Positions 4,014 to 43,817 of a stretch of DNA of 43,817 nt are shown here, in pieces. The notes under the pieces were generated by a model that had not been told where the DNA came from, made no database searches, and saw nothing but the letters and a program-made list of their open reading frames with translations. The DNA lies in the IMG/VR virus record IMGVR_UViG_3300048893_000075, positions 1-43,817 of that record; one strand, given 5' to 3'. This DNA comes from a virus (Duplodnaviria; Caudoviricetes). A program made the position numbers and the translations under genes. Position 1 is the first letter of the stretch; the number at the start of each line of letters is the position of its first letter.

Positions 4014-4217
4014 ATGGGTAAATACATTTGCCAATTTAAAACAACGATACGGGGCGAGCTGACTATAGACGCGCCTAGCATAGAAGACGCTGACGCTATG
4101 GCTGAGGATATGGCCGCTGACACATTAAGCTACGAAGACCTGACTAGCGGCGGCAAATATGTGCCAGACGTTGAGACTGAGTTCGAGAACATTTACGAGC
4201 AGGATACGGCTGCATGA
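4014..4217 (+). CDS. Acidic hypothetical protein
   Basis: ORF in operon; start could also be 3975. Confidence 0.6.
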   Translation: MGKYICQFKTTIRGELTIDAPSIEDADAMAEDMAADTLSYEDLTSGGKYVPDVETEFENIYEQDTAA

Positions 4218-6069: not shown

Positions 6070-6154
6070 CCAAACACCTCTCCCCACCCCACTACCAAAG
6101 GTGGGGAGAATACCATATAGAGCGTTTACAGCAGCCAGCGAGTAAGGAGTGATT

Positions 6155-6394
6155 ATGGATTCAGAAAACAGCCGCGAATCAACCTTTGGCGAAAAAGCCG
6201 TAGGTGTTGGTTTTAACCCCTCAAAGAATGAAAAGGTTGACAAACTTAAAGAGCACTACGCTGCAATCATTGACATCCTAAACAGTGACCGTGGTGAAAA
6301 CCGTGACGAACGCGCCCGTCTCGCTTCCGTGGCCATTACCGAAGCACAAGGCGCTCAAATGTGGGCTGTCAAAGCAGTCACCTTTACACGCTAA
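6155..6394 (+). CDS. Acb2/Tad1-like helical hairpin protein (candidate nucleotide-signal sponge)
   Basis: FNPS...VD.LK...A.IID...RLASVAITEAQGAQMWAVKA resembles the C-terminal helix of Tad1/Acb2-type proteins; TAAGGAG site. Confidence 0.55.
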   Translation: MDSENSRESTFGEKAVGVGFNPSKNEKVDKLKEHYAAIIDILNSDRGENRDERARLASVAITEAQGAQMWAVKAVTFTR

Positions 6395-12443: not shown

Positions 12444-12821
12444 ATGGCAAGTAAGGCACCCAAGATAACAGTCAAACAGGCAAAGTTTGTTAAGGGAATC
12501 GCTGAGGGTAAAAAGAAGCGCGATGCAGCACGTGATGCTGGATACTCAGGCAGCCCTGAGACTCTATCCGTTACAGCCAGCGAGGTACTAAGAAAGCCTA
12601 ATGTGCAAGAGGCGTTGCAGTCAGAGCTTGAAAAACAAGGTATTACCCTTGAAAAGATCATAAAGCCAATTACTAATGCTTTAAACAGCGACAGTGTTGA
12701 AACACAACTTAAAGGTCACGACCGTGCAATGAGAATTGTTGCGCCTCGTATGGACACGCCTACCTTTAATTTTAATTTCGGTACTGTCGTAAATGGTGAT
12801 AGGGAAAAGTATGGAATATAA
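12444..12821 (+). CDS. terS: Terminase small subunit
   Basis: T.KQ.KF...AARDAGYS.......ASE.L.KP.V helix-turn-helix signature; directly upstream of TerL. Confidence 0.88.
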   Translation: MASKAPKITVKQAKFVKGIAEGKKKRDAARDAGYSGSPETLSVTASEVLRKPNVQEALQSELEKQGITLEKIIKPITNALNSDSVETQLKGHDRAMRIVAPRMDTPTFNFNFGTVVNGDREKYGI

Positions 12822-13713
12822 ACCATACAAAGGCCTGAATTCCCTACAGAATAATGAGCCTAGGGGCCATACAGGCTTTAACTGGCGCGGTTACAGCGAC
12901 TTTATGTCTGACCGCTTCACTATTGTGGACAAAAAGAAGCAAGAGGTGCCATTCACACAGCAGCCCGCACAAGATGACTTCTTGTACTGGATGAGTGTTT
13001 ACTTAAATATCTTGATTCTCAAGGCTCGCAAGATGGGCTTTAGTTCTACCGCTCTAGGTGTAGGTACGACCAAGTTTATAAATGGCAAGAATGAAAAATG
13101 TGTCTCTATGTCTTTTGATGCCGATGCTTCGGTTAAACAGCTGGCGAGAGCTAAGCATTACATTAAGAGCTATGAGCGCAAGAAATCCCTGGAACTACAA
13201 CAAGAGTTTAAACTACCACTCAAATACAATTCAAAGAAAGAGTTGGTACTTGAATGCAAAGACGAGGAAACGGGTGAGGAGTGGATTAATACATTGCGTG
13301 TCGGTACGGCCAAGTCTACCTCTTTTGGACGTGGTGATGACATTACATTCTTGCACCTTACAGAGGTTGCATTTTGTGATGATGTAGAGGTGTTGCTGGC
13401 TGGTGTGGGCGAGGCATTAGTAGATGGTGCACATACTATATTTGAAACAACTGCTAATGGATTTAATTCATATAAGGCGTTCTGGGATGCCGCAATTCTA
13501 AACAAGAAGGGTTTTGCTGCGCTATTCTATTCGCCCATGTGGGAGTACGACCAAGAGTATTTAGACAACCGCGAGAAGAAGCTAGGCAGACTATTTACGC
13601 AAGAGTATCCAATGACCCCACAAGACGCGTTCCTTACATCTGGCTTACCCTACTTTGATACATACGCGATGCGCGACTACCTCAAGAGAGTACAGAAAGC
13701 TATGGCTCTATGA
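12811..13713 (+). CDS. terL: Terminase large subunit, ATPase half
   Basis: Walker A LKARKMGFSS, Walker B LHLTEVAF, coupling motif ETTANG; alternative start 12793. Confidence 0.9.
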   Translation: MEYKPYKGLNSLQNNEPRGHTGFNWRGYSDFMSDRFTIVDKKKQEVPFTQQPAQDDFLYWMSVYLNILILKARKMGFSSTALGVGTTKFINGKNEKCVSMSFDADASVKQLARAKHYIKSYERKKSLELQQEFKLPLKYNSKKELVLECKDEETGEEWINTLRVGTAKSTSFGRGDDITFLHLTEVAFCDDVEVLLAGVGEALVDGAHTIFETTANGFNSYKAFWDAAILNKKGFAALFYSPMWEYDQEYLDNREKKLGRLFTQEYPMTPQDAFLTSGLPYFDTYAMRDYLKRVQKAMAL

Positions 13714-14459
13714 ATCCGCTAGATAAAGACATGTTTAGGCAATACAGGGAGTTACGTAAGGGCGAGTTTATTATCGTGTTCGTAGATACAGCCGGGGAAG
13801 GTAGCGACTGGAATGCCGCCCACTTCTTGAGTAGGGAAGCCTTAGACATACCCATAGTGCTGCACTATGAAGGCTCGATAGTCGATGTGACCCCGAAGCT
13901 CAAGAATGCCCTGGAATGGATACACGACCAGACTGGTATCAAGCCAGTGGTAGCATACGAGACAAACAACGGTGGTGGCTACGAGCTTGAACGGCTGGCC
14001 AGGCTTAACAAATACGAGAAGTTTATAATATACCGCCAATACAAACTTGACGAACACGGCAAATTAAAGCGCAGTGACAAATTGGGCTGGAATACTAATT
14101 CAGCTACGCGCCCGGCAATGTTGTCAGGAGTGGAAGACCTAATTAATAACATGCTCGTGACTATCTATGATGAACCTACAGTTAACGAGATGTTCAGCTT
14201 TGTAAAGCACAAAACCCCGAGCGGTTGGCGGGCCGAGGCAGAAGAAGGCTCGACTGACGACCTTATTCTATCGCTCGCTGGAGTATGGCAATTGTACCAG
14301 ACAGAGAAACCGCAGCCCAATGGGCAGACAGGCGGTCGTGTAGTAAGAACCAACGTGAACAACGGCCGTATGCCCCCCATGACAGTTAACCCCGATGGAA
14401 CAATGAGATTAAATCTAGACTTTAGGAGAGCACATGCTAAAAAGTCCTTTCGCCGATAA
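13710..14459 (+). CDS. terL: Terminase large subunit, RNase H-like nuclease half
   Basis: FVDTAGEGSD, YETNNGG, GW.TN..TRP, DDLILSLA motifs. Confidence 0.88.
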   Translation: MNPLDKDMFRQYRELRKGEFIIVFVDTAGEGSDWNAAHFLSREALDIPIVLHYEGSIVDVTPKLKNALEWIHDQTGIKPVVAYETNNGGGYELERLARLNKYEKFIIYRQYKLDEHGKLKRSDKLGWNTNSATRPAMLSGVEDLINNMLVTIYDEPTVNEMFSFVKHKTPSGWRAEAEEGSTDDLILSLAGVWQLYQTEKPQPNGQTGGRVVRTNVNNGRMPPMTVNPDGTMRLNLDFRRAHAKKSFRR

Positions 14460-15649: not shown

Positions 15650-15794
15650 ACAAGCTAGAGCCACTAACCGAGTCATCCTGAAAGCAATAACCGTAACCCT
15701 GGAGAATGGCACGGAACTTAACCTAGACATTCACAGGGTTGATCTAATAGACAAGAGTACAAAGAAAAGATTATTTAAACTGGAGAGCAAGTGA
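15639..15794 (+). CDS. Small hypothetical protein (51 aa, not in ORF track)
   Basis: MSNKQARATNRVILKAITV...; overlaps both neighbouring genes. Confidence 0.55.
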   Translation: MSNKQARATNRVILKAITVTLENGTELNLDIHRVDLIDKSTKKRLFKLESK

Positions 15795-17377
15795 TGCAAG
15801 ATAAGACCGTAGATATTCAATTTGATGCAAATGCACACCGCGAAATAGCCCGGGGTGTTGAAATGATCAGCAAGGCGGTGGCTTCAACATATGGCCCTGG
15901 TGGCCGTACCGTGCTTATCAAGAAGCGCTATGTTGACCCAATGACTACTCGTGACGGTGTGACAGTAGCCCTTAACATTGCTGGCCCTGGCAAGAAGCTA
16001 GACACTGAACTAGCTACCATGGGTGCAAAACTCGTATACCAAGCAAGCAACAAGACTGCTAAAACTGCTGGTGACGGCACAACTGCAACTACCATTCTTA
16101 TGGCCGAACTATACAAATCAGGCTATAAGCAAATCGTAGCCGGCACGGATGCAACCGAAGTCGTAGCTAGTCTGAACAAAGACCGCGACACTATTGTTAA
16201 GTATGTTGAATCCAAGTCTAAGAAGTGTGATAAAAAGATGCTCGATCAGGTAGCTACTATCTCATGCCGTGACGATCAGCTAGGCCAGATGATCAGTGAC
16301 TTAGTGTGGGATGTTGGCGCAGACGGTGCTATTAACCTGGAATATCAGAACGCTCCACTTGTTGAAGTAGACAAGATAACTGGCTATATGTTTAGCAGCG
16401 GCTTCAAAGACCTTACAGCACGCGCAATACTAGGCGACCCGACTATACTTGTCACGCAAAAACCTTTGCGCTCACGTTCTGATATACTCCCCTTACTCGA
16501 CCTGCTTATCAAACAAGACAACCCATCTGTCATTATCGGCGACGTATCGAGTGCAGCTTACGAAACACTGCTATGGGCACTCAGCAACGATATTAATCTA
16601 GAGGATGGTTCGGTACGCCGTCTGACGTGCTTGGTGGTGCCTCCCCCTGCATATGGCAGCGATGGGCATGACTACTTTGAAGATATTGCTACGTATACAG
16701 GCGCACGGCTCATACTAGAGTCTGACGAGTTCAAGCAGGTTACATCTGCCCACTTCGGCACAGCTAAGGGCGCTATTATCGAGCGCCACAAGGCCGTGAT
16801 CTTTGGCGACAACAAAACTGGCGACGAGATAGCTGAGCGCATTAAGACTATTAAAACTCTAATGGCTGACACCGACATTAGCCCTAGCCAAAAAGAAGCA
16901 TACGAGCAGCGTTTAGCTAAGCTGGCTGGCAAGGTGTCCATCCTCAAGATCGGTGCCGCAACCGATGTAGAGCGTGAGGAGTTATTCTTTAGGGTTGAGG
17001 ATGCAGTAGAGGCTTGCAAGTCAGCATTAAGCAGTGGTGTCGTTGCTGGTGGTGCTACTACCTTACTGTTTGCTAGTCAGCTAGAGATTGAGCGGTTCGT
17101 AAGTGACGCACTACAAAAGCCATTCAAGCTACTCATGGAACATTCAGCAGAAGATAGCGGCCTACGCAAGCAGCAGATTCTAAAGGCTGGCTATGGCAAA
17201 GGCTTCAACCTGAAAGCTATGACCGATGAGCCTACTGATCTTAATGAAAGCGGCGTAGTTGACCCAACCAAGGTTGTATTACAGACAGTCAAGAATGCGT
17301 TTGCTAACGCCGGGGCTTTGCTTACTATGGGCACTACTATTACAGAGGTTGAAGAAGATGAAGCTACCAATAAATAA
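15794..17377 (+). CDS. groEL: GroEL-like chaperonin
   Basis: YGPGG, TRDGVTVA, AGDGTT, RLAKLAG, RVEDAV, GVVAGG, GVVDPTKV. Confidence 0.95.
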   Translation: MQDKTVDIQFDANAHREIARGVEMISKAVASTYGPGGRTVLIKKRYVDPMTTRDGVTVALNIAGPGKKLDTELATMGAKLVYQASNKTAKTAGDGTTATTILMAELYKSGYKQIVAGTDATEVVASLNKDRDTIVKYVESKSKKCDKKMLDQVATISCRDDQLGQMISDLVWDVGADGAINLEYQNAPLVEVDKITGYMFSSGFKDLTARAILGDPTILVTQKPLRSRSDILPLLDLLIKQDNPSVIIGDVSSAAYETLLWALSNDINLEDGSVRRLTCLVVPPPAYGSDGHDYFEDIATYTGARLILESDEFKQVTSAHFGTAKGAIIERHKAVIFGDNKTGDEIAERIKTIKTLMADTDISPSQKEAYEQRLAKLAGKVSILKIGAATDVEREELFFRVEDAVEACKSALSSGVVAGGATTLLFASQLEIERFVSDALQKPFKLLMEHSAEDSGLRKQQILKAGYGKGFNLKAMTDEPTDLNESGVVDPTKVVLQTVKNAFANAGALLTMGTTITEVEEDEATNK

Positions 17378-38200: not shown

Positions 38201-38238
38201 TAACAGCAATTGACATAAACAACCATTAGTGCTAAGAT
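38201..38238 (+). promoter_or_regulatory. Sigma70-type promoter; copy 1 of a 29-bp direct repeat
   Basis: TTGACA(38210)-17 bp-TAAGAT(38233); 38201-38229 matches 40881-40909 at 28/29. Confidence 0.7.
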
Positions 38239-38273
38239 TGAACCAATCAAACAGAGATGTTTGACCCGCGAAG

Positions 38274-38320
38274 GAAATAAATAAACCCCAACCAATTCGG
38301 AAGGGGTTTATTTATTTTTT
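38274..38320. terminator. Bidirectional intrinsic terminator
   Basis: AAATAAATAAACCCC...GGGGTTTATTTATTT between convergent transcripts. Confidence 0.7.
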
Positions 38321-38329
38321 GAGTATTTT

Positions 38330-38415
38330 TGGTGGAGGGTGCGGGGGTCGAACCCGCTCTCCCGCGAAGGAATCCGTTTTACAGACGGTTGCATTAACCG
38401 TTCTGCCAACCCCCC
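38330..38415 (-). tRNA. tRNA-Tyr(GTA)
   Basis: Reverse complement gives acceptor GGGGGGT/ACCCTCC-A-CCA, anticodon loop CTGTAAA, long variable arm, GGTTCGA T arm; minus-strand GGTATAAT at 38522-38529. Confidence 0.9.
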
Positions 38416-38729: not shown

Positions 38730-38849
38730 TGGTATACTGGCAGTGTCTAGGTACAAGGTAGTGTGTTCGAACAAGGATTGGGGTACTTCCCGAAAGAGGT
38801 TCGAACACCTTTGTACCTAGACAGTGCTAGGGGAGTGCCCCAATTTTTA
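38730..38849 (+). ncRNA. Small RNA with a long hairpin and a competing 15-bp loop-tail helix
   Basis: TGGTATACT promoter; 38744-38758/38809-38823, 38763-38772/38799-38808 and 38777-38791/38830-38844 pairings. Confidence 0.6.
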
Positions 38850-38864
38850 TTTATAGTCATTTCG

Positions 38865-38972
38865 TGTTACAATAAAGGTCTGGTCACAGGGAGCTGCCGT
38901 GGTCTAGAGTAATCTAGGCCTGGTATGTCGTGGCTATCTATGACTTCCAGGATATTCTTGGAAGTCTTTTTT
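38865..38972 (+). ncRNA. Candidate trans-acting antisense sRNA (about 90 nt)
   Basis: TGTTACAAT promoter; central hairpin GGTCTAGA-GTAA-TCTAGGCC; terminator GACTTCCA/TGGAAGTC plus T6; complementary to 41134-41160. Confidence 0.65.
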
Positions 38973-39128: not shown

Positions 39129-39629
39129 ATGAATTTAGGTGAAGCATTAAAAGAACGTTACGCTTCTATAGAAAAGAGAGGTAATAAACCTCCTGTTACT
39201 TCTATAGAACTGCCAGCTGAAATAGAAAGCTTAATAACGGGTAGTGACTACTGGCGTAAGGCCAAGGTCAACCGTTACAAGAAGCTTATCCGTGAGGGTC
39301 ATCTTGACGACTTGCTGGAACTCGCGAAACAGGCGTTAGCCAAAGACACGCCCGCTAACTGGTTTGCACGAGTGGCATCCAAGGCGCAATGGCAACGAAC
39401 ACTAGACTGGCTCGCTAAGCTACGAGAAGTGGCACAGAACGCCGTCGAAGTAGCAAAACGGTTAGGAGTCGTGCCCGAGCAGATGAAAGCCGTATACAAG
39501 GCATGCTGGCGCTTTGGTGACTCTGTAATTAGCAAGGCCGTTACAGCCGAGGAAACAGGTAGGGATAAGTTTAAGTACTTCAATTGGCTATGCAGGTACG
39601 AGGGTATGCCACATGGAAAACGCAGCTAA
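39129..39629 (+). CDS. Hypothetical helical protein (possible replication or regulatory protein)
   Basis: TAAGGA site before ATG 39129; two similar P..WF / ..YFNW helical units; function is a guess. Confidence 0.65.
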   Translation: MNLGEALKERYASIEKRGNKPPVTSIELPAEIESLITGSDYWRKAKVNRYKKLIREGHLDDLLELAKQALAKDTPANWFARVASKAQWQRTLDWLAKLREVAQNAVEVAKRLGVVPEQMKAVYKACWRFGDSVISKAVTAEETGRDKFKYFNWLCRYEGMPHGKRS

Positions 39630-39819
39630 AAGTATCGAGGTCTTATTTGCAGAGCCATTTGAACCTCAGTGGATGAAACAGCGCCAACAGGATGAGGCAT
39701 TGGCTGAAGTTCAGGAGTTAAACGATATGCTGACACGCAATGATTTCAATTGGAAAGAGTCAGCAAAAGAGTCGAGGGAGCGCATAGCCGCAAAGTTTAG
39801 CCAACGAACAAATAGTTAA
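39613..39819 (+). CDS. Hypothetical protein
   Basis: GAGG site; overlaps the previous gene. Confidence 0.6.
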   Translation: MENAAKSIEVLFAEPFEPQWMKQRQQDEALAEVQELNDMLTRNDFNWKESAKESRERIAAKFSQRTNS

Positions 39820-39967: not shown

Positions 39968-40870
39968 ATGAGTATCAGCGAGGCGTTTGACCTGTACCGT
40001 TTGGACTACATTATATACAATAATCAGTCCGAAAAAACCTTGGATGCACACAATTGTGCGCTCAGGTTCCTACTTGATTTTTTGGGCGAAGACATACAAA
40101 TCGAAGATCTGACGCTGCCTCAGGTAAAAGCTTGGAAACGTTCTTTGGATGATGGGCGTTTAGTCGGGACGGTACGTGAGTACTTAACCCGTCTTAGAAT
40201 GGTATTGAAATACCAGCGCATAGAAGGGAATAACGATGTAATAAGCTTTGAGCGTATTACCCTACCACCTAGGGATGATCCAGATCCCCAGTTCTTGACC
40301 GTTGACCAGGTTGAGGAATTAATCAGGGTCATGTTTAAGCCCACTCGGGGGTACTCAAAGCTAAATAGGTATCGAAATCGTGCACTGATAAGTCTGTTAT
40401 TCGCAGCTGGCTTGCGGTCTGCTGAGATACGTAAAATGGATAGGAATAGCATACGGACGGATGGAACATTTACCATTAAAGGTAAAAAGAAGCGAAAGCG
40501 CCTTTGCTTTACAGATGAGGCCACTCTCATATATATACGAGAGTACTTAGCGATGCGCACAGACAGCAATCCTGCATTATTTATTGCTAACCAGAATGGT
40601 AAAAGACTATCTAAAAACGCTTTTCAGCGTATCTTTGAGAATGCACGCCGTAAGGTGGATTTTGACGTGTTTGTCCATGGTCACACGTTAAGACACAGCT
40701 TTGCTACCGATTTGTTACGCAACAACGCAAACATGCGTTACGTGCAGGCAATGCTCGGCCACTCATCAATACAAACCACTCAGATTTATACTCATGTGGT
40801 AGACATAGATTTAGAGGGAGCGCATAAAAAACATCATACGCGGCTACCCCTTATAACAAATACTTTTTGA
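39968..40870 (+). CDS. int: Tyrosine recombinase/integrase (XerC/D-like)
   Basis: GLRSAE, KGKK, HTLRHSFAT, LGH, TTQIY catalytic set. Confidence 0.95.
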   Translation: MSISEAFDLYRLDYIIYNNQSEKTLDAHNCALRFLLDFLGEDIQIEDLTLPQVKAWKRSLDDGRLVGTVREYLTRLRMVLKYQRIEGNNDVISFERITLPPRDDPDPQFLTVDQVEELIRVMFKPTRGYSKLNRYRNRALISLLFAAGLRSAEIRKMDRNSIRTDGTFTIKGKKKRKRLCFTDEATLIYIREYLAMRTDSNPALFIANQNGKRLSKNAFQRIFENARRKVDFDVFVHGHTLRHSFATDLLRNNANMRYVQAMLGHSSIQTTQIYTHVVDIDLEGAHKKHHTRLPLITNTF

Positions 40871-40880
40871 AAAAACGGCG

Positions 40881-40918
40881 TAACAACAATTGACATAAAC
40901 AACCATTAGGAGTACTAT
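40881..40918 (+). promoter_or_regulatory. Main early promoter candidate; copy 2 of the 29-bp repeat
   Basis: TTGACA(40890)-17 bp-TACTAT(40913). Confidence 0.75.
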
Positions 40919-40993: not shown

Positions 40994-41072
40994 GCGGGCT
41001 TTCGAGCCTAACGCTTAGAGCGCATCCTTGCCAAGGATGAGGCCAGGGGTTAGAGTCCCCTGACCCGCACCA
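40994..41072 (+). tRNA. tRNA-Gly(GCC)-like sequence with degenerate 5'/D arm; probable attP core (about 41015-41072)
   Basis: CATCC-TTGCCAA-GGATG anticodon arm, CAGGG/CCCTG T arm, CCCGC-A-CCA end; adjacent to the integrase. Confidence 0.75.
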
Positions 41073-41090: not shown

Positions 41091-41125
41091 AAACCCTTCT
41101 GATGAAGAATCAGGAGGGTTTTTTT
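41091..41125 (+). terminator. Intrinsic terminator after attP
   Basis: AAACCCTTCTGAT/ATCAGGAGGGTTT plus T run. Confidence 0.8.
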
Positions 41126-41366
41126 GTTACCTCTTTAGGCCACGACACATCCCTGTGACCTAAAGAGCCCGATAACGAAACTTATCGCGCAGTTAGCGGT
41201 CGTCCCCGTTCAAGGACGCAAGCGTTTGAATGATCTGATAAAAGCTTTGAGTGTCTACTCGTTAGAAGCTTCCAGATCAACTAGCTTGAGAGATTCATCT
41301 CCGAGGTGGAGATACAACGGTTCTTTTACAACTTATATCGGGATTGTCACTAATAAGGAGACAATC

Positions 41367-41732
41367 ATGCAATACATTTTCGTTATGCCTAACGGTAAAG
41401 AGATTCGCATGGATAAGACTTACTTTGAAAAGCACATGCCAAAATCGAATATCAAATACCACCCCTACGGCGTTAGTGGCGACGGGTACATCCACCCTGA
41501 TGATATCGACAAGATATTTAGCCGTCACAGCCGTAAGGTAAAAACGATCTTTGACACCGCCAAAAAGCTCTACAAAGAATACGAGGGCAAAAACTGGCTT
41601 GGCTTACCCGAAACAGTACGCGATCTGGTATGGATTCAGCACCAAACTGCGGAAGAGGAACAGCAGAGCCGCCAGGAAGACCTACGATTCTTTAGGAGCT
41701 ACGAGCTAGGTGTACGTGCAGTAGCAGCATAG
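41367..41732 (+). CDS. Hypothetical protein, first early gene
   Basis: TAAGGAG site before ATG 41367, held in hairpin GATTGTC/GACAATC. Confidence 0.75.
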   Translation: MQYIFVMPNGKEIRMDKTYFEKHMPKSNIKYHPYGVSGDGYIHPDDIDKIFSRHSRKVKTIFDTAKKLYKEYEGKNWLGLPETVRDLVWIQHQTAEEEQQSRQEDLRFFRSYELGVRAVAA

Positions 41733-41801
41733 ATATGTCCAGCATTTATTGCTGGCAACCCCGATATAAGAAGCAAAAGACCAAAACCAGAAGGAGCGCA
41801 T

Positions 41802-42386
41802 ATGAAGGGACTCATAAAAGCCCTAAGTATCGCCCTGTTAAGTGCGGCCTTAATCAGCCTAGCACCTAACAAGGAAGCTCCGGCGCAACTTAACAATTCA
41901 ACTCAACCAACGAGTAGTTCGGTAATTCCGGACAACTCGGAACCAGAGACACAGCGAACACGAGCACCAATTCAACAGGACAAACGCGACGAAAAGGTAG
42001 CAGTGAAAACTGAAACAGAGTTGAAGCCGGAGAGTACGGCCAGGCAAGTAAAACCCGCCGTACCAAGTAATACACAAGGATGCGAACAATACCGTCACCT
42101 ATTCGAACAATACGCTTGGCCTGTTAATACCGCCTTGGCTATATGCCAGGCAGAGAGTAGCGGAAACATACAGGCTGTGAACTGGGGAGATAACCACGGC
42201 AAGTGTAAGGGGAGTTTTTCCCTTATGCAAGTCGGCTGTTTCTGGTACCCACATTTTGGATATTCTGAAGCAGATAGGTACAAACCAGAAGTAAACGTAA
42301 AAATAGCATATCAGATATATGAACGTCAGAAGTCTTTCGGGGCGTGGACTACATATACTGGTGGGCGGTATCTCAAGTTCTTGTAG
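41802..42386 (+). CDS. Secreted lytic transglycosylase (SLT/lysozyme-like)
   Basis: Signal peptide, low-complexity linker, AESSGN catalytic Glu, SLMQV, NV..AY.IY, AW..Y. Confidence 0.85.
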   Translation: MKGLIKALSIALLSAALISLAPNKEAPAQLNNSTQPTSSSVIPDNSEPETQRTRAPIQQDKRDEKVAVKTETELKPESTARQVKPAVPSNTQGCEQYRHLFEQYAWPVNTALAICQAESSGNIQAVNWGDNHGKCKGSFSLMQVGCFWYPHFGYSEADRYKPEVNVKIAYQIYERQKSFGAWTTYTGGRYLKFL

Positions 42387-42541
42387 GTTAAGGACGGATA
42401 GCTAGTAGCAATGGCCGAATTTAGTAGGCTATGCCGATTGAGGAATGTAACGGCACCTGATGAGAGATTCTAGAGAGTGCTCATTAAGGCGGCGATCCGC
42501 GCAACAGTTACATCATTGCTACTAGCTATCCGTCCTTAACC
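42386..42541 (+). ncRNA. Stem-closed RNA domain A
   Basis: Perfect 28-bp inverted repeat 42386-42413/42514-42541; inner stems ATGTAAC/GTTACAT and TGATGAG/CTCATTA. Confidence 0.65.
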
Positions 42542-42544
42542 AAC

Positions 42545-42676
42545 CCCTAGCGCCTACTCAAGCGGTCACAAGGAGCATCAATACTTGAACGGATTAACGG
42601 TCAACAATAGCCGCCGCAGGTATTGTGCTGGGCACAGCTTAAACGGTTCACACAACCGCTTGCGTGGGCGCTAGGG
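42545..42676 (+). ncRNA. Stem-closed RNA domain B
   Basis: 42545-42566/42655-42676 (22 bp, one mismatch, one G-U); inner CAATACTTG/CAGGTATTG; followed by a C(UUCG)G hairpin. Confidence 0.6.
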
Positions 42677-42698
42677 TGGAGGCTTCGGCCTTCTATAT

Positions 42699-42775
42699 GC
42701 GGCAGTACATGGCACAAGCAAGGTCTTTGGAATTGTACCTATGCTTGCCAGTTCGAATCTGGAACTGCCGCAACT
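42699..42775 (+). ncRNA. tRNA-like RNA C (no D arm, long central arm)
   Basis: GCGGCAGT/ACTGCCGC stem, CCAG-TTCGAAT-CTGG T arm, CAAGCA/TGCTTG arm; no encoded CCA. Confidence 0.6.
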
Positions 42776-42779
42776 ATAT

Positions 42780-42857
42780 GGGGTGCTTAACAAGGATGTT
42801 AGCCAGGGGTTTACGTTCCCTGGGGCAGTTAGGTTCGATTCCTAAAGCCCCCCGCCA
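42780..42857 (+). tRNA. Non-canonical tRNA-like RNA D (8/5 fold, possible TAC anticodon)
   Basis: GGGGTGCT/AGCCCCCC-G-CCA, TAACA/TGTTA, CCAGGG/CCCTGG, TTAGG-TTCGATT-CCTAA. Confidence 0.65.
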
Positions 42858-42873
42858 AACTATATAAACCAAC

Positions 42874-43626: not shown

Positions 43627-43817
43627 GTAGAAACGCATGTAATGCGGTAGTAAGTGGCGGAATAGGTAGACGTTATCGACGCCATAACAAGCATAGGTGG
43701 CGCACCTCAGCAGTGTACATACCCTAGGCTTTATACCTTGGCGGCATGCAGGATGACTATACGAGTACATCTACCTTAACTAGGTAGCTCTGAGCAACAG
43801 CACGGCGCGCTTCGCAA
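43627..43817 (+). ncRNA. 5' part of stem-closed RNA domain G (continues to 219)
   Basis: 43627-43654 pairs with 191-219 across the junction. Confidence 0.6.
43691..43817. repeat. Terminal direct repeat (identical to 1-127)
   Basis: Exact match to 1-127. Confidence 0.95.

What the first reader, a model, noticed from the sequence alone, without database searches (positions are those of the whole stretch)
38865..38972. sRNA with two arms complementary to an early-leader hairpin 2.2 kb away
Seen: GGTCACAGGGA (38882-38892) is the exact complement of TCCCTGTGACC (41150-41160). TGTCGTGGCT (38926-38935) pairs with GGCCACGACA (41138-41147; one G-U). The two arms flank a central hairpin and their targets are 2 nt apart, which would form a three-way junction on hairpin 41131-41167 just after the attP terminator. 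Alternatively, 38882-38908 pairs with 41134-41160 at 24 of 27 positions including two G-U. Established: the P1 C4 and P4 CI RNAs regulate immunity through bipartite antisense pairing. Inference: an RNA-based immunity or early-gene regulator.
Basis: partly seen in the sequence, partly recalled or inferred. Interest (0 to 1): 0.82.

Follow-up and report, generated by a model that had tools for sequence, protein, structure and literature searches.

The report
RNA-pair lysogeny switch in Saccharibacteria phages
In a family of temperate viruses that likely infect tiny Saccharibacteria, a short RNA element in front of the integrase genes and a hairpin in front of the early genes are always each other's complement although their sequences differ from virus to virus, and the two RNAs likely decide between dormancy and lysis in place of the usual repressor protein.

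Summary
The complementarity is real and conserved. The window is a circular temperate phage whose attP matches Saccharibacteria tRNA-Gly. The 'sRNA' is the terminated 5' leader (about 38880-38972) of the ORF166-ORF68-integrase operon. Its first ~28 nt are the best genome-wide partner of hairpin 41131-41167, behind attP and a terminator.

Relatives give 32 distinct leader/target pairs in 19 guide-sequence groups. Each leader pairs best with its own target (32 of 32), with many compensatory changes. The duplex starts at the leader's +1 and, in 28 of 32, covers the 5' strand of the leader's terminator, the geometry of engineered STAR antiterminators. This window seems to use a relay helix instead, which folding supports only before the terminator is complete. 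The target precedes a host-type boxA in 24 of 32 (not here). In proviruses the partners lie 30+ kb apart, so pairing is in trans. No CI-like protein was found.

Likely mechanism: terminated leader RNA neutralises the early transcript (immunity), and excess early transcript antiterminates rep-int. It is not a C4 or CI family member. Expression and direction of control are untested.

The parts
38865..38873 (+). P1: extended -10 promoter element (TG-n-TACAAT) of the leader RNA; weak -35
   Evidence: Sequence. A -10 hexamer lies 5-11 nt before the duplex in 31 of 32 leaders (1 nt in L287); score >=10 in 30 of 32
38880..38972 (+). Leader RNA (~93 nt): the 'sRNA'; 5' leader of the ORF166-ORF68-int operon
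   Evidence: Fold z -4.9 to -5.7, 0 of 200 shuffles as stable; start inferred from P1; expression untested
38882..38909 (+). 5' antisense segment complementary to 41133-41160 (conserved contiguous mode)
   Evidence: same position in 32 leaders
38919..38951 (+). Predicted relay/antiterminator helix (38919-38923 with 38947-38951, plus an inner stem) that forms when the 5' segment is occupied
   Evidence: Constraint folding: dominates only while the terminator is incomplete
38926..38935 (+). Second arm; pairs 41138-41147 in the three-way-junction mode of the full-length RNA (this genome only)
38942..38972 (+). T1: intrinsic terminator of the leader (11 bp, U6)
39129..39629 (+). ORF166, all-helical protein, possibly DnaD-like replication protein (function not established)
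   Evidence: No Pfam/PHROG hit; model pLDDT 85; best fold matches Z 5-6.6, inconclusive; C-terminal repeat related to the ~100-aa gene in the same slot of relatives, E 1e-4; in L063/L066 the slot holds an HTH_36 protein and a DnaB helicase
39613..39819 (+). ORF68, unknown
   Evidence: No family hit
39968..40870 (+). Tyrosine integrase, 300 aa
   Evidence: PF00589 E 2.6e-35; phrog_1
40890..40918 (+). P2: sigma70-type promoter reading through attP towards the early genes
   Evidence: equivalent found in 31 of 32 loci
40994..41072 (+). tRNA-Gly(GCC)-like attP; 41015-41072 is the putative core shared with the host tRNA
   Evidence: Rfam tRNA 33.6 bits; 98% over 58 nt to genomes G327, G451 of the Saccharibacteria family searched
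41091..41126 (+). T2: intrinsic terminator behind attP
   Evidence: equivalent 6-45 nt before the target in 30 of 32 loci
41131..41167 (+). H1: target/trigger hairpin at the head of the early-gene leader
   Evidence: Fold z -6.3; stem covaries in 13 relatives, with G-U pairs on the + strand
41320..41334 (+). boxA-like motif, 160 nt after the duplex, at the start of a 35-nt long-range helix with 41746-41780
   Evidence: imperfect match, weaker than in most relatives
41367..41732 (+). First early gene (121 aa from the ATG with RBS), unknown
   Evidence: no family hit

Best explanation
The element is the terminated 5' leader of the phage's integrase operon, its first ~28 nt are complementary to the hairpin at the head of the early-gene leader, and the two RNAs likely pair in trans as a repressor-free lysis/lysogeny switch. 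Shown by sequence: the order P1 - antisense segment - terminator T1 - rep-like gene - int - P2 - attP tRNA - terminator T2 - hairpin H1 - (boxA) - early genes, the strict co-variation of the pair, and their separation to opposite prophage ends on integration. Inferred step 1: P1 is constitutive, so the lysogen accumulates terminated leader RNA, which binds any transcript leaking through T2 (from a host tRNA promoter or from P2 of a superinfecting phage), opens H1 and inactivates it, by RNase III cleavage of the duplex or by refolding next to boxA; this would give sequence-specific immunity. Inferred step 2: when H1-containing RNA exceeds this sink it binds nascent leaders, blocks T1 (directly in most relatives, through a relay helix here) and turns on rep-int; excision rejoins P2 to H1 and gives positive feedback. 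Odds: selected RNA-RNA pairing about 0.92; leader represses early transcript about 0.65; early transcript antiterminates rep-int about 0.6; both about 0.45.
For: 53 of 121 scored integrase loci (duplicates and distant integrases included) have an ungapped duplex score >=17, against 1 of 121 shuffles; they reduce to 32 distinct leaders in 19 guide groups; cognate target best in 32 of 32, mean -41.9 vs -13.7 kcal/mol between groups. Within groups 46, 14 and 4 two-sided compensatory cells vs 10, 2 and 0 broken. Duplex begins 5-11 nt after a -10 hexamer in 31 of 32 and covers 6-14 bp of the T1 5' strand in 28 of 32. No other promoter-like site between T1 and int in 28 of 32 (4 have a score-10 site), none within 95 nt before the target in 32 of 32. 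T2 in 30 of 32; boxA-type TTAA[AC]AA[TC] within 70 nt after the duplex in 24 of 32 vs mean 0.34, max 3 in 500 shuffles; the same motif follows a hairpin in 19 of 19 host rRNA leaders inspected. H1 and an overlapping hairpin H2 both covary and share 3 nt. Provirus G408: target right behind host tRNA-Ala and a terminator, leader 31 kb away; same split in G417, G418, G419. Five host-family genomes: NusB 5 of 5, RNase III 5 of 5, Hfq 0 of 5, Rho 0 of 5. No HTH/CI Pfam hit among 66 + 128 window ORFs or 131 ORFs of three relatives.
Against: No expression or binding data. In this window T1 is not overlapped by the duplex; with the 5' segment blocked the complete terminator still forms at equilibrium (P 0.92-0.99); the relay helix wins only 4 nt before completion (0.91 to 0.00); L001 0.44 to 0.02, L320 0.77 to 0.32, L150 no effect (0.49 to 0.60). 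The trigger is itself a hairpin (45-76% paired), which would slow co-transcriptional binding. boxA accessibility barely changes on blocking (0.67 to 0.72); this window and L001 have no exact boxA near H1; a strict search found a downstream terminator within 2.5 kb in only 1 of 9 loci, so what a boxA complex would read through is unclear. Overlap with the T1 stem could also be explained by the need to open the H1 base. Absence of a Pfam repressor hit is weak in such unannotated genomes, and ORF166 could be a regulator. Several integrase relatives show no pair (G001, G404, G405, G411, G413, G414, G415; G406 and G416 unresolved). In relatives with a reversed tRNA fragment at attP no host promoter would face the target.
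Confidence: 0.55

Rival explanations
1. One-way repression only: the terminated leader RNA silences the early transcript (RNase III cleavage or refolding of H1/H2 beside boxA); rep-int is expressed by leak or upstream read-through, not by RNA antitermination.
For: Strong constitutive-looking P1 and self-contained short RNA; H1/H2 switch and boxA; RNase III present, Hfq not found; in this window the full-length RNA binds as a three-way junction that leaves T1 intact; terminator survives blocking at equilibrium in the four long leaders.
Against: Duplex covers the T1 5' strand in 28 of 32; no second promoter before int in 28 of 32, even where the operon carries a DnaB helicase; relay helix effect in 3 of 4 long leaders.
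Confidence: 0.2
2. One-way activation only: the early leader is a natural STAR that couples rep-int expression to early transcription; the terminated RNA is a by-product and immunity comes from something else (for example separation of P2 from the early genes by integration).
For: STAR geometry; integration separates P2 from H1; little predicted change in boxA accessibility.
Against: An abundant terminated RNA with a 22-31 bp complement would bind the early leader anyway (net -9 to -28 kcal/mol in 8 loci); 19 guide groups look like immunity-type diversification; no repressor found.
Confidence: 0.13
3. The leader RNA activates early transcription: by opening H1 it lets H2 fold just before boxA, mimicking the host rRNA hairpin-boxA signal.
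For: H1 and H2 share 3 nt and both covary; host rRNA leaders have a hairpin directly before boxA.
Against: A constitutive activator would make lysogens unstable; short-type loci (L014, L025, L304, L310, L311, L357) have boxA 14-24 nt after the duplex, so H1 itself sits in the hairpin position.
Confidence: 0.05
4. DNA-level sites: inverted repeats for inversion or integrase binding, or an RNA guide forming an R-loop on the attP arm (RNA-guided directionality factor).
For: The repeats flank an integrase and lie 60-90 nt from attP; 17 A-C mismatches would be G-T pairs on the other strands; a 5' guide followed by a hairpin and a small unknown protein resembles guide/effector layouts (recalled).
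Against: All 32 loci are in one orientation with the promoter before the guide; no shared sequence between groups for a protein to read; H1 covaries with G-U pairs on the + strand; minus-strand promoter-like sites face the leader in only 4 of 32 and the target in 3 of 32; central mismatches in 7 of 19 groups would hinder strand exchange.
Confidence: 0.04
5. Type I toxin-antitoxin-like translational control of the first early ORF, which is a small hydrophobic protein in several relatives.
For: First ORFs of L001, L006, L011, L015, L016, L018 are short and hydrophobic.
Against: Not so in this window, L009, L012, L025; the target lies about 200 nt or more upstream of the first start codon; does not explain the position of the RNA as int-operon leader.
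Confidence: 0.03

Closest known systems
Small transcription activating RNAs (STARs), engineered (bioRxiv 10.1101/022772, passages read)
   Same: A trans RNA complementary to the 5' strand of an intrinsic terminator placed before a gene; exactly the geometry of 28 of 32 leaders.
   Different: STARs are synthetic; here the trigger is a structured part of another phage leader, the terminated target would act back on it, and this window uses a relay helix. Activation not shown.
Phage P4 CI RNA immunity (described in passages of PMC4825925)
   Same: RNA, not protein, as immunity factor acting on the leader of a lytic operon.
   Different: CI is processed from the transcript that carries its targets seqA and seqC; here the RNAs have separate promoters, lie 0.7-3 kb apart in the circle and 30+ kb apart in the prophage, and pair in one long helix; no Rfam match.
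Phage P1/P7 C4 RNA (passage of review PMC12197685)
   Same: Trans-encoded antisense RNA whose sequence changes can define heteroimmunity; this window can form a bipartite complex.
   Different: C4 blocks a ribosome-binding site of the antirepressor operon beside a protein repressor; here the target is about 200 nt before the first start codon, bipartite pairing is not conserved, no repressor is found.
pT181/pIP501 antisense attenuators (recalled; search listing only)
   Same: Short antisense RNA, RNA-RNA pairing decides termination before a replication gene.
   Different: Those RNAs are cis-encoded from the opposite strand and cause termination; here both RNAs are on one strand at separate loci and pairing would prevent termination.
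rRNA-leader and lambda nut boxB-boxA antitermination signals (abstracts)
   Same: Hairpin followed by boxA in a leader; host has NusB.
   Different: No antisense control of those signals is described in the abstracts seen; Rho was not found in 5 host genomes.

Membership tests
C4 antisense RNA (P1/P7; Rfam C4-type families) | Match to the Rfam covariance models | tested here: not met
   Only tRNA at gathering threshold in the whole window; no match over 38880-38972 up to E 5
C4 antisense RNA (P1/P7; Rfam C4-type families) | Two separate loop segments pair with bipartite targets | tested here: inconclusive
   Cofold minimum in this genome only; L001 and L320 pair contiguously; the short leaders have one segment
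C4 antisense RNA (P1/P7; Rfam C4-type families) | Target overlaps a ribosome-binding site of an antirepressor operon | tested here: not met
   Target ends at 41160, first RBS at about 41355; no antirepressor family hit
P4 CI RNA | Processed from the same transcript that carries its targets upstream and downstream | tested here: not met
   Own promoter and terminator; target 31 kb away and upstream in provirus G408
P4 CI RNA | Causes premature termination of the lytic operon | not testable with these tools
   No expression data; Rho not found in 5 of 5 host-family genomes; strict terminator search positive in 1 of 9 loci
STAR-type trans antiterminator | Trans RNA complementary to the 5' strand of an intrinsic terminator upstream of genes | tested here: met
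   28 of 32 leaders, 6-14 bp overlap; not in this window, where the link is indirect
STAR-type trans antiterminator | In this window: binding prevents the terminator | tested here: inconclusive
   Relay helix dominates before completion (0.91 to 0.00) but not at equilibrium (0.99 vs 0.92)
STAR-type trans antiterminator | Measured increase of read-through | not testable with these tools
   Needs in vitro transcription or reporter
pT181-type plasmid attenuator | Antisense RNA transcribed from the opposite strand of its target | tested here: not met
   Both partners on the + strand at separate loci; minus-strand promoter-like sites in 3-4 of 32 only
rrn/nut boxA antitermination leader | boxA motif of host type behind a hairpin | tested here: inconclusive
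   Met in 24 of 32 loci and 19 of 19 host rRNA leaders; only an imperfect, distant copy in this window
Invertible DNA segment / integrase arm sites | Both orientations found, conserved site sequence | tested here: not met
   One orientation in 32 of 32, 19 sequence groups; read-level inversion could not be examined

The most novel reading that the evidence does not exclude
A widespread clade of Saccharibacteria temperate phages runs its lysis/lysogeny decision and superinfection immunity with two mutually antagonistic RNAs and no repressor protein: the early-gene leader is a natural STAR that antiterminates the replication-integrase operon, while the terminated leader is the immunity factor that titrates it and disables a phage copy of the host rRNA boxA signal; integration rewires the circuit by cutting P2 from the trigger, and guide sequence defines immunity groups.
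Probability: 0.42. Interest if true: 0.92.

Novelty: new variant of a known kind. Interest (0 to 1): 0.8.

Why it matters
It would explain how temperate phages of a lineage with minimal genomes, no Hfq and no Rho found keep a prophage quiet without a CI repressor. It would supply natural trans-acting RNA antiterminators of intrinsic terminators, a design I found only as engineered STARs in the searches run. At least 19 naturally diversified, largely orthogonal pairs can be tested at once in E. coli or B. subtilis reporters or with purified RNA polymerase, so the question does not wait for a cultured host. The guide sequence would also predict immunity groups directly from genomes.

Tried and rejected
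Single-protein searches of viral contigs with the integrase and ORF166 gave no loci; alignments were needed. Exact search for a 15-mer of the L001 guide gave 112 mostly chance matches, a paired copy only in L001's own contig. 78 of 80 metagenome loci of ORF166 homologues besides L150, and L083-L086, have no integrase on the locus (only L001/L002, L082, L150 carry both) and were not informative. Four weak genome hits of the ~100-aa gene (G305, G047, G044, G261) showed no duplex above 16 and look like other elements; G001 (L082) has the gene order but no partner in 43 kb (best 14). Automatic terminator calling picked the wrong hairpin for the window, L001, L150, L320 and none for L013; redone by hand. 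Automatic promoter choice was wrong for G403, G406, G419, G420; redone: G403, G419, G420 then gave the expected site, G406 did not; G423 is marginal (-21.2 vs -20.1). G412 had no integrase match and was not analysed; G409 is cut inside the leader. Test whether pair-negative relatives carry repressors: one weak winged-HTH hit near int in G413 among 49 ORFs, inconclusive. ORF166 fold: no match above Z 6.6; DnaD-like domains Z 5.3 and 4.8, PHAX-type RNA-binding domains Z 6.0-6.6; Atlas hits only unnamed clusters. Sequencing runs: no RNA holder listed; strain variation and inversion in reads were not examined. Earlier scan notes: nothing found. Literature: searches listed no description of this system; the library lacks most subscription papers, and the supplements of the catalogue of phage candidate structured RNAs (PMC10690425, listing only) were not examined and may hold these hairpins as anonymous motifs. 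PMC13401043 and PMC7157519 were seen as abstract and outline only; PMC12647753 as passages (no 'antisense' or 'small RNA' in its text).

Full report
Setting. The window is a whole circular phage genome (127-nt terminal repeat) with terminase, portal, capsid, amidase, ERF-like annealing protein and a tyrosine integrase, all called genes on the + strand. Behind the integrase lies a tRNA-Gly(GCC)-like sequence whose 3' 58 nt match genomes of the Saccharibacteria family of G001 at up to 98% (36 of 41 genomes matched; that tally includes two unpublished genomes, G283 and G434, on which no claim rests). The nearest genome-encoded relative of the gene after the RNA is in a Saccharibacteria MAG. The host is therefore inferred to be a Saccharibacterium.

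Observation. The RNA starts near 38880 behind an extended -10 element and ends in an 11-bp terminator. Its first 31 nt find hairpin 41131-41167 as best partner among 3613 plus-strand windows (-43.7 vs -36.0 kcal/mol), though a looser 61-nt scan ranked a site near 4111 slightly higher. The three-way junction is the predicted minimum for the finished RNA; the 45-nt nascent RNA pairs contiguously over about 28 nt.

Conservation. Integrase and ORF166 alignments fetched relatives. An ungapped antisense scan of the DNA upstream against the DNA downstream of the integrase scored >=17 in 20 of 65 loci at first and in 53 of 121 in the larger set, against 1 of 121 shuffles; loci with short flanks were dropped, duplicates and distant integrases are in the denominators. 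The 53 reduce to 32 distinct leaders in 19 groups at 70% guide identity. Each pairs best with its own target (32 of 32; mean -41.9 vs -13.7 between groups, though the strongest between-group value is -43.1, so some groups would cross-react). Within groups, two-sided compensatory changes outnumber broken pairs 46:10, 14:2 and 4:0 (cells, not independent events). Over 31 duplexes there are 750 Watson-Crick, 24 G-U, 17 A-C and 4 other positions; my scoring favoured G-U, and most A-C lie at positions 12-15.

Anatomy. The duplex starts 5-11 nt after a -10 hexamer in 31 of 32 leaders, that is at the RNA's 5' end, and covers 6-14 bp of the 5' strand of the leader's terminator in 28 of 32; no terminator was called in L013, and the window, L001 and L320 have a longer leader without overlap. 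Downstream come a small helical protein related to ORF166, or an HTH protein and DnaB helicase in L063/L066, and the integrase; 28 of 32 have no further promoter-like site before int. On the other side, a strong promoter P2 follows int in 31 of 32, then the tRNA fragment, a terminator T2 (30 of 32), the target hairpin H1, and within 70 nt a TTAA[AC]AA[TC] motif in 24 of 32 (shuffles: mean 0.34, max 3). The same motif follows a hairpin in 19 of 19 host rRNA leaders inspected (pattern written after seeing them), which marks it as boxA; NusB and RNase III were found in 5 of 5 host-family genomes, Hfq and Rho in 0 of 5. In 13 aligned targets H1 and an overlapping hairpin H2 both covary and share three nucleotides, and H1 uses G-U pairs on the + strand. 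This window has only an imperfect boxA 160 nt downstream.

Integrated state. In provirus G408 the target follows host tRNA-Ala and a terminator at one end and the leader lies 31 kb downstream beside int. G417, G418 and G419 show the same split with shorter, bulged duplexes. L150, in a 1.07-Mb contig, has the leader but no target behind its att site. Pairing must therefore be in trans, and integration separates P2 from the early leader.

Mechanism. Two directions follow from the anatomy. (a) Early leader on nascent P1 RNA: binding the terminator's 5' strand is the STAR design (10.1101/022772, passages). In this window blocking the 5' segment frees 38919-38923 to pair with the terminator arm; terminator probability falls from 0.91 to 0.00 four nucleotides before completion but recovers to 0.92-0.99 once complete; L001 and L320 behave alike, L150 does not. 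So here the effect would be kinetic and is not shown. (b) Finished RNA on the early leader: net binding is -9 to -28 kcal/mol in 8 loci tested, -14 here; it would open H1, allow H2 and create a 22-31 bp RNase III substrate. Predicted boxA accessibility hardly changes (0.67 to 0.72) and downstream terminators were found in 1 of 9 loci, so the route of repression is open. No HTH or CI family was hit among 194 window ORFs or 131 ORFs of G407, G408 and G410, weak evidence in poorly annotated genomes. I commit to a mutual sink-and-trigger switch (0.55 for the statement as a whole, 0.45 for both directions acting), with one-way models next.

Rejected readings. Inversion ends or integrase sites: one orientation in all 32, no shared sequence, central mismatches in 7 of 19 groups; reads were not examined. 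Minus-strand RNAs: promoter-like sites in only 3-4 of 32. The pair is not universal: none found in G001, G404, G405, G411, G413, G414, G415; G406 and G416 unresolved.

Known systems. It works like P4 CI and P1 C4 in being RNA-based control of a phage leader (passages of PMC4825925 and PMC12197685) but fails their membership tests (no Rfam match; separate transcripts; no RBS overlap). It has the geometry of engineered STARs and the logic of pT181-type attenuators (recalled) with the sign reversed and in trans. Nine literature searches listed no description; coverage is limited to open-access papers and supplements were not read.

Verdict. A real, widespread, co-varying RNA pair in Saccharibacteria temperate phages; new variant of antisense control, categorically new if the two-way switch holds. 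Interest 0.8.

Noticed in passing
window 38201-38320 (+): 29-nt near-exact copy of promoter P2 (97% to 40881-40909), followed by a small hairpin, an 8-nt copy of the tRNA-Gly 3' end and a strong terminator (fold z -7.0): a second small RNA or a relic of the P2-attP-T2 unit.
   Followed up: partly
window 38735-38835 (+): Very stable 100-nt branched hairpin (z -8.2) just upstream of P1, no Rfam match.
   Followed up: no
window 38330-38415 (-): tRNA-Tyr(GTA), the only element called on the minus strand.
   Followed up: no
window 41216-42676: Nested long-range helices (41322-41356/41746-41780 around the first early ORF; 42383-42413/42514-42544; 42545-42566/42655-42676; 41216-41242/42639-42665; -22 to -53 kcal/mol), like RNase III processing stems of an rRNA precursor.
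   Followed up: partly
window 42698-42858: Two tRNA-like elements not called by ARAGORN (one weak tRNA-Sec model hit, E 0.049); a further tRNA-like start near 43660.
   Followed up: partly
window 6149-6394, 15791-17377, 12793-14459: Acb2/Tad1-type anti-defence protein, a phage GroEL, and a large terminase apparently in two ORFs.
   Followed up: no
window 38983-38954 (-): Promoter-like site (10 of 12) pointing back through the leader RNA; similar in only 4 of 32 loci.
   Followed up: partly
L016 5595-5624, L018 5587-5616, L032, L006 (attP regions): These attP regions carry the 5' half of a tRNA in reverse orientation with a minus-strand promoter, around a palindromic anticodon-loop core: integration that restores the tRNA's 5' end and promoter.
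   Followed up: no
G419:C1 and G420:C1, about 880 and 1340 nt upstream of int: A second promoter-short RNA-terminator unit with a 16-nt complement about 470 nt upstream; perhaps another antisense pair.
   Followed up: no
L001 6100-6400: A pseudo-tRNA, then a full tRNA-Gly and two terminators before the target hairpin.
   Followed up: no
32 leader/target duplexes: A recurrent unpaired position near the middle of the duplex (mostly A-C, 7 of 19 guide groups), possibly tuning RNase III cleavage.
   Followed up: partly
G358, G393, G385, G194, G438: nusB lies about 1.1 kb from the RNase III gene in all five, and these genomes keep NusB and rRNA boxA although no Rho was found.
   Followed up: no
L084-L086 and most of L087-L166: A second large subfamily of ORF166 homologues (some in Chloroflexota MAGs) occurs without the integrase on the locus.
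   Followed up: no
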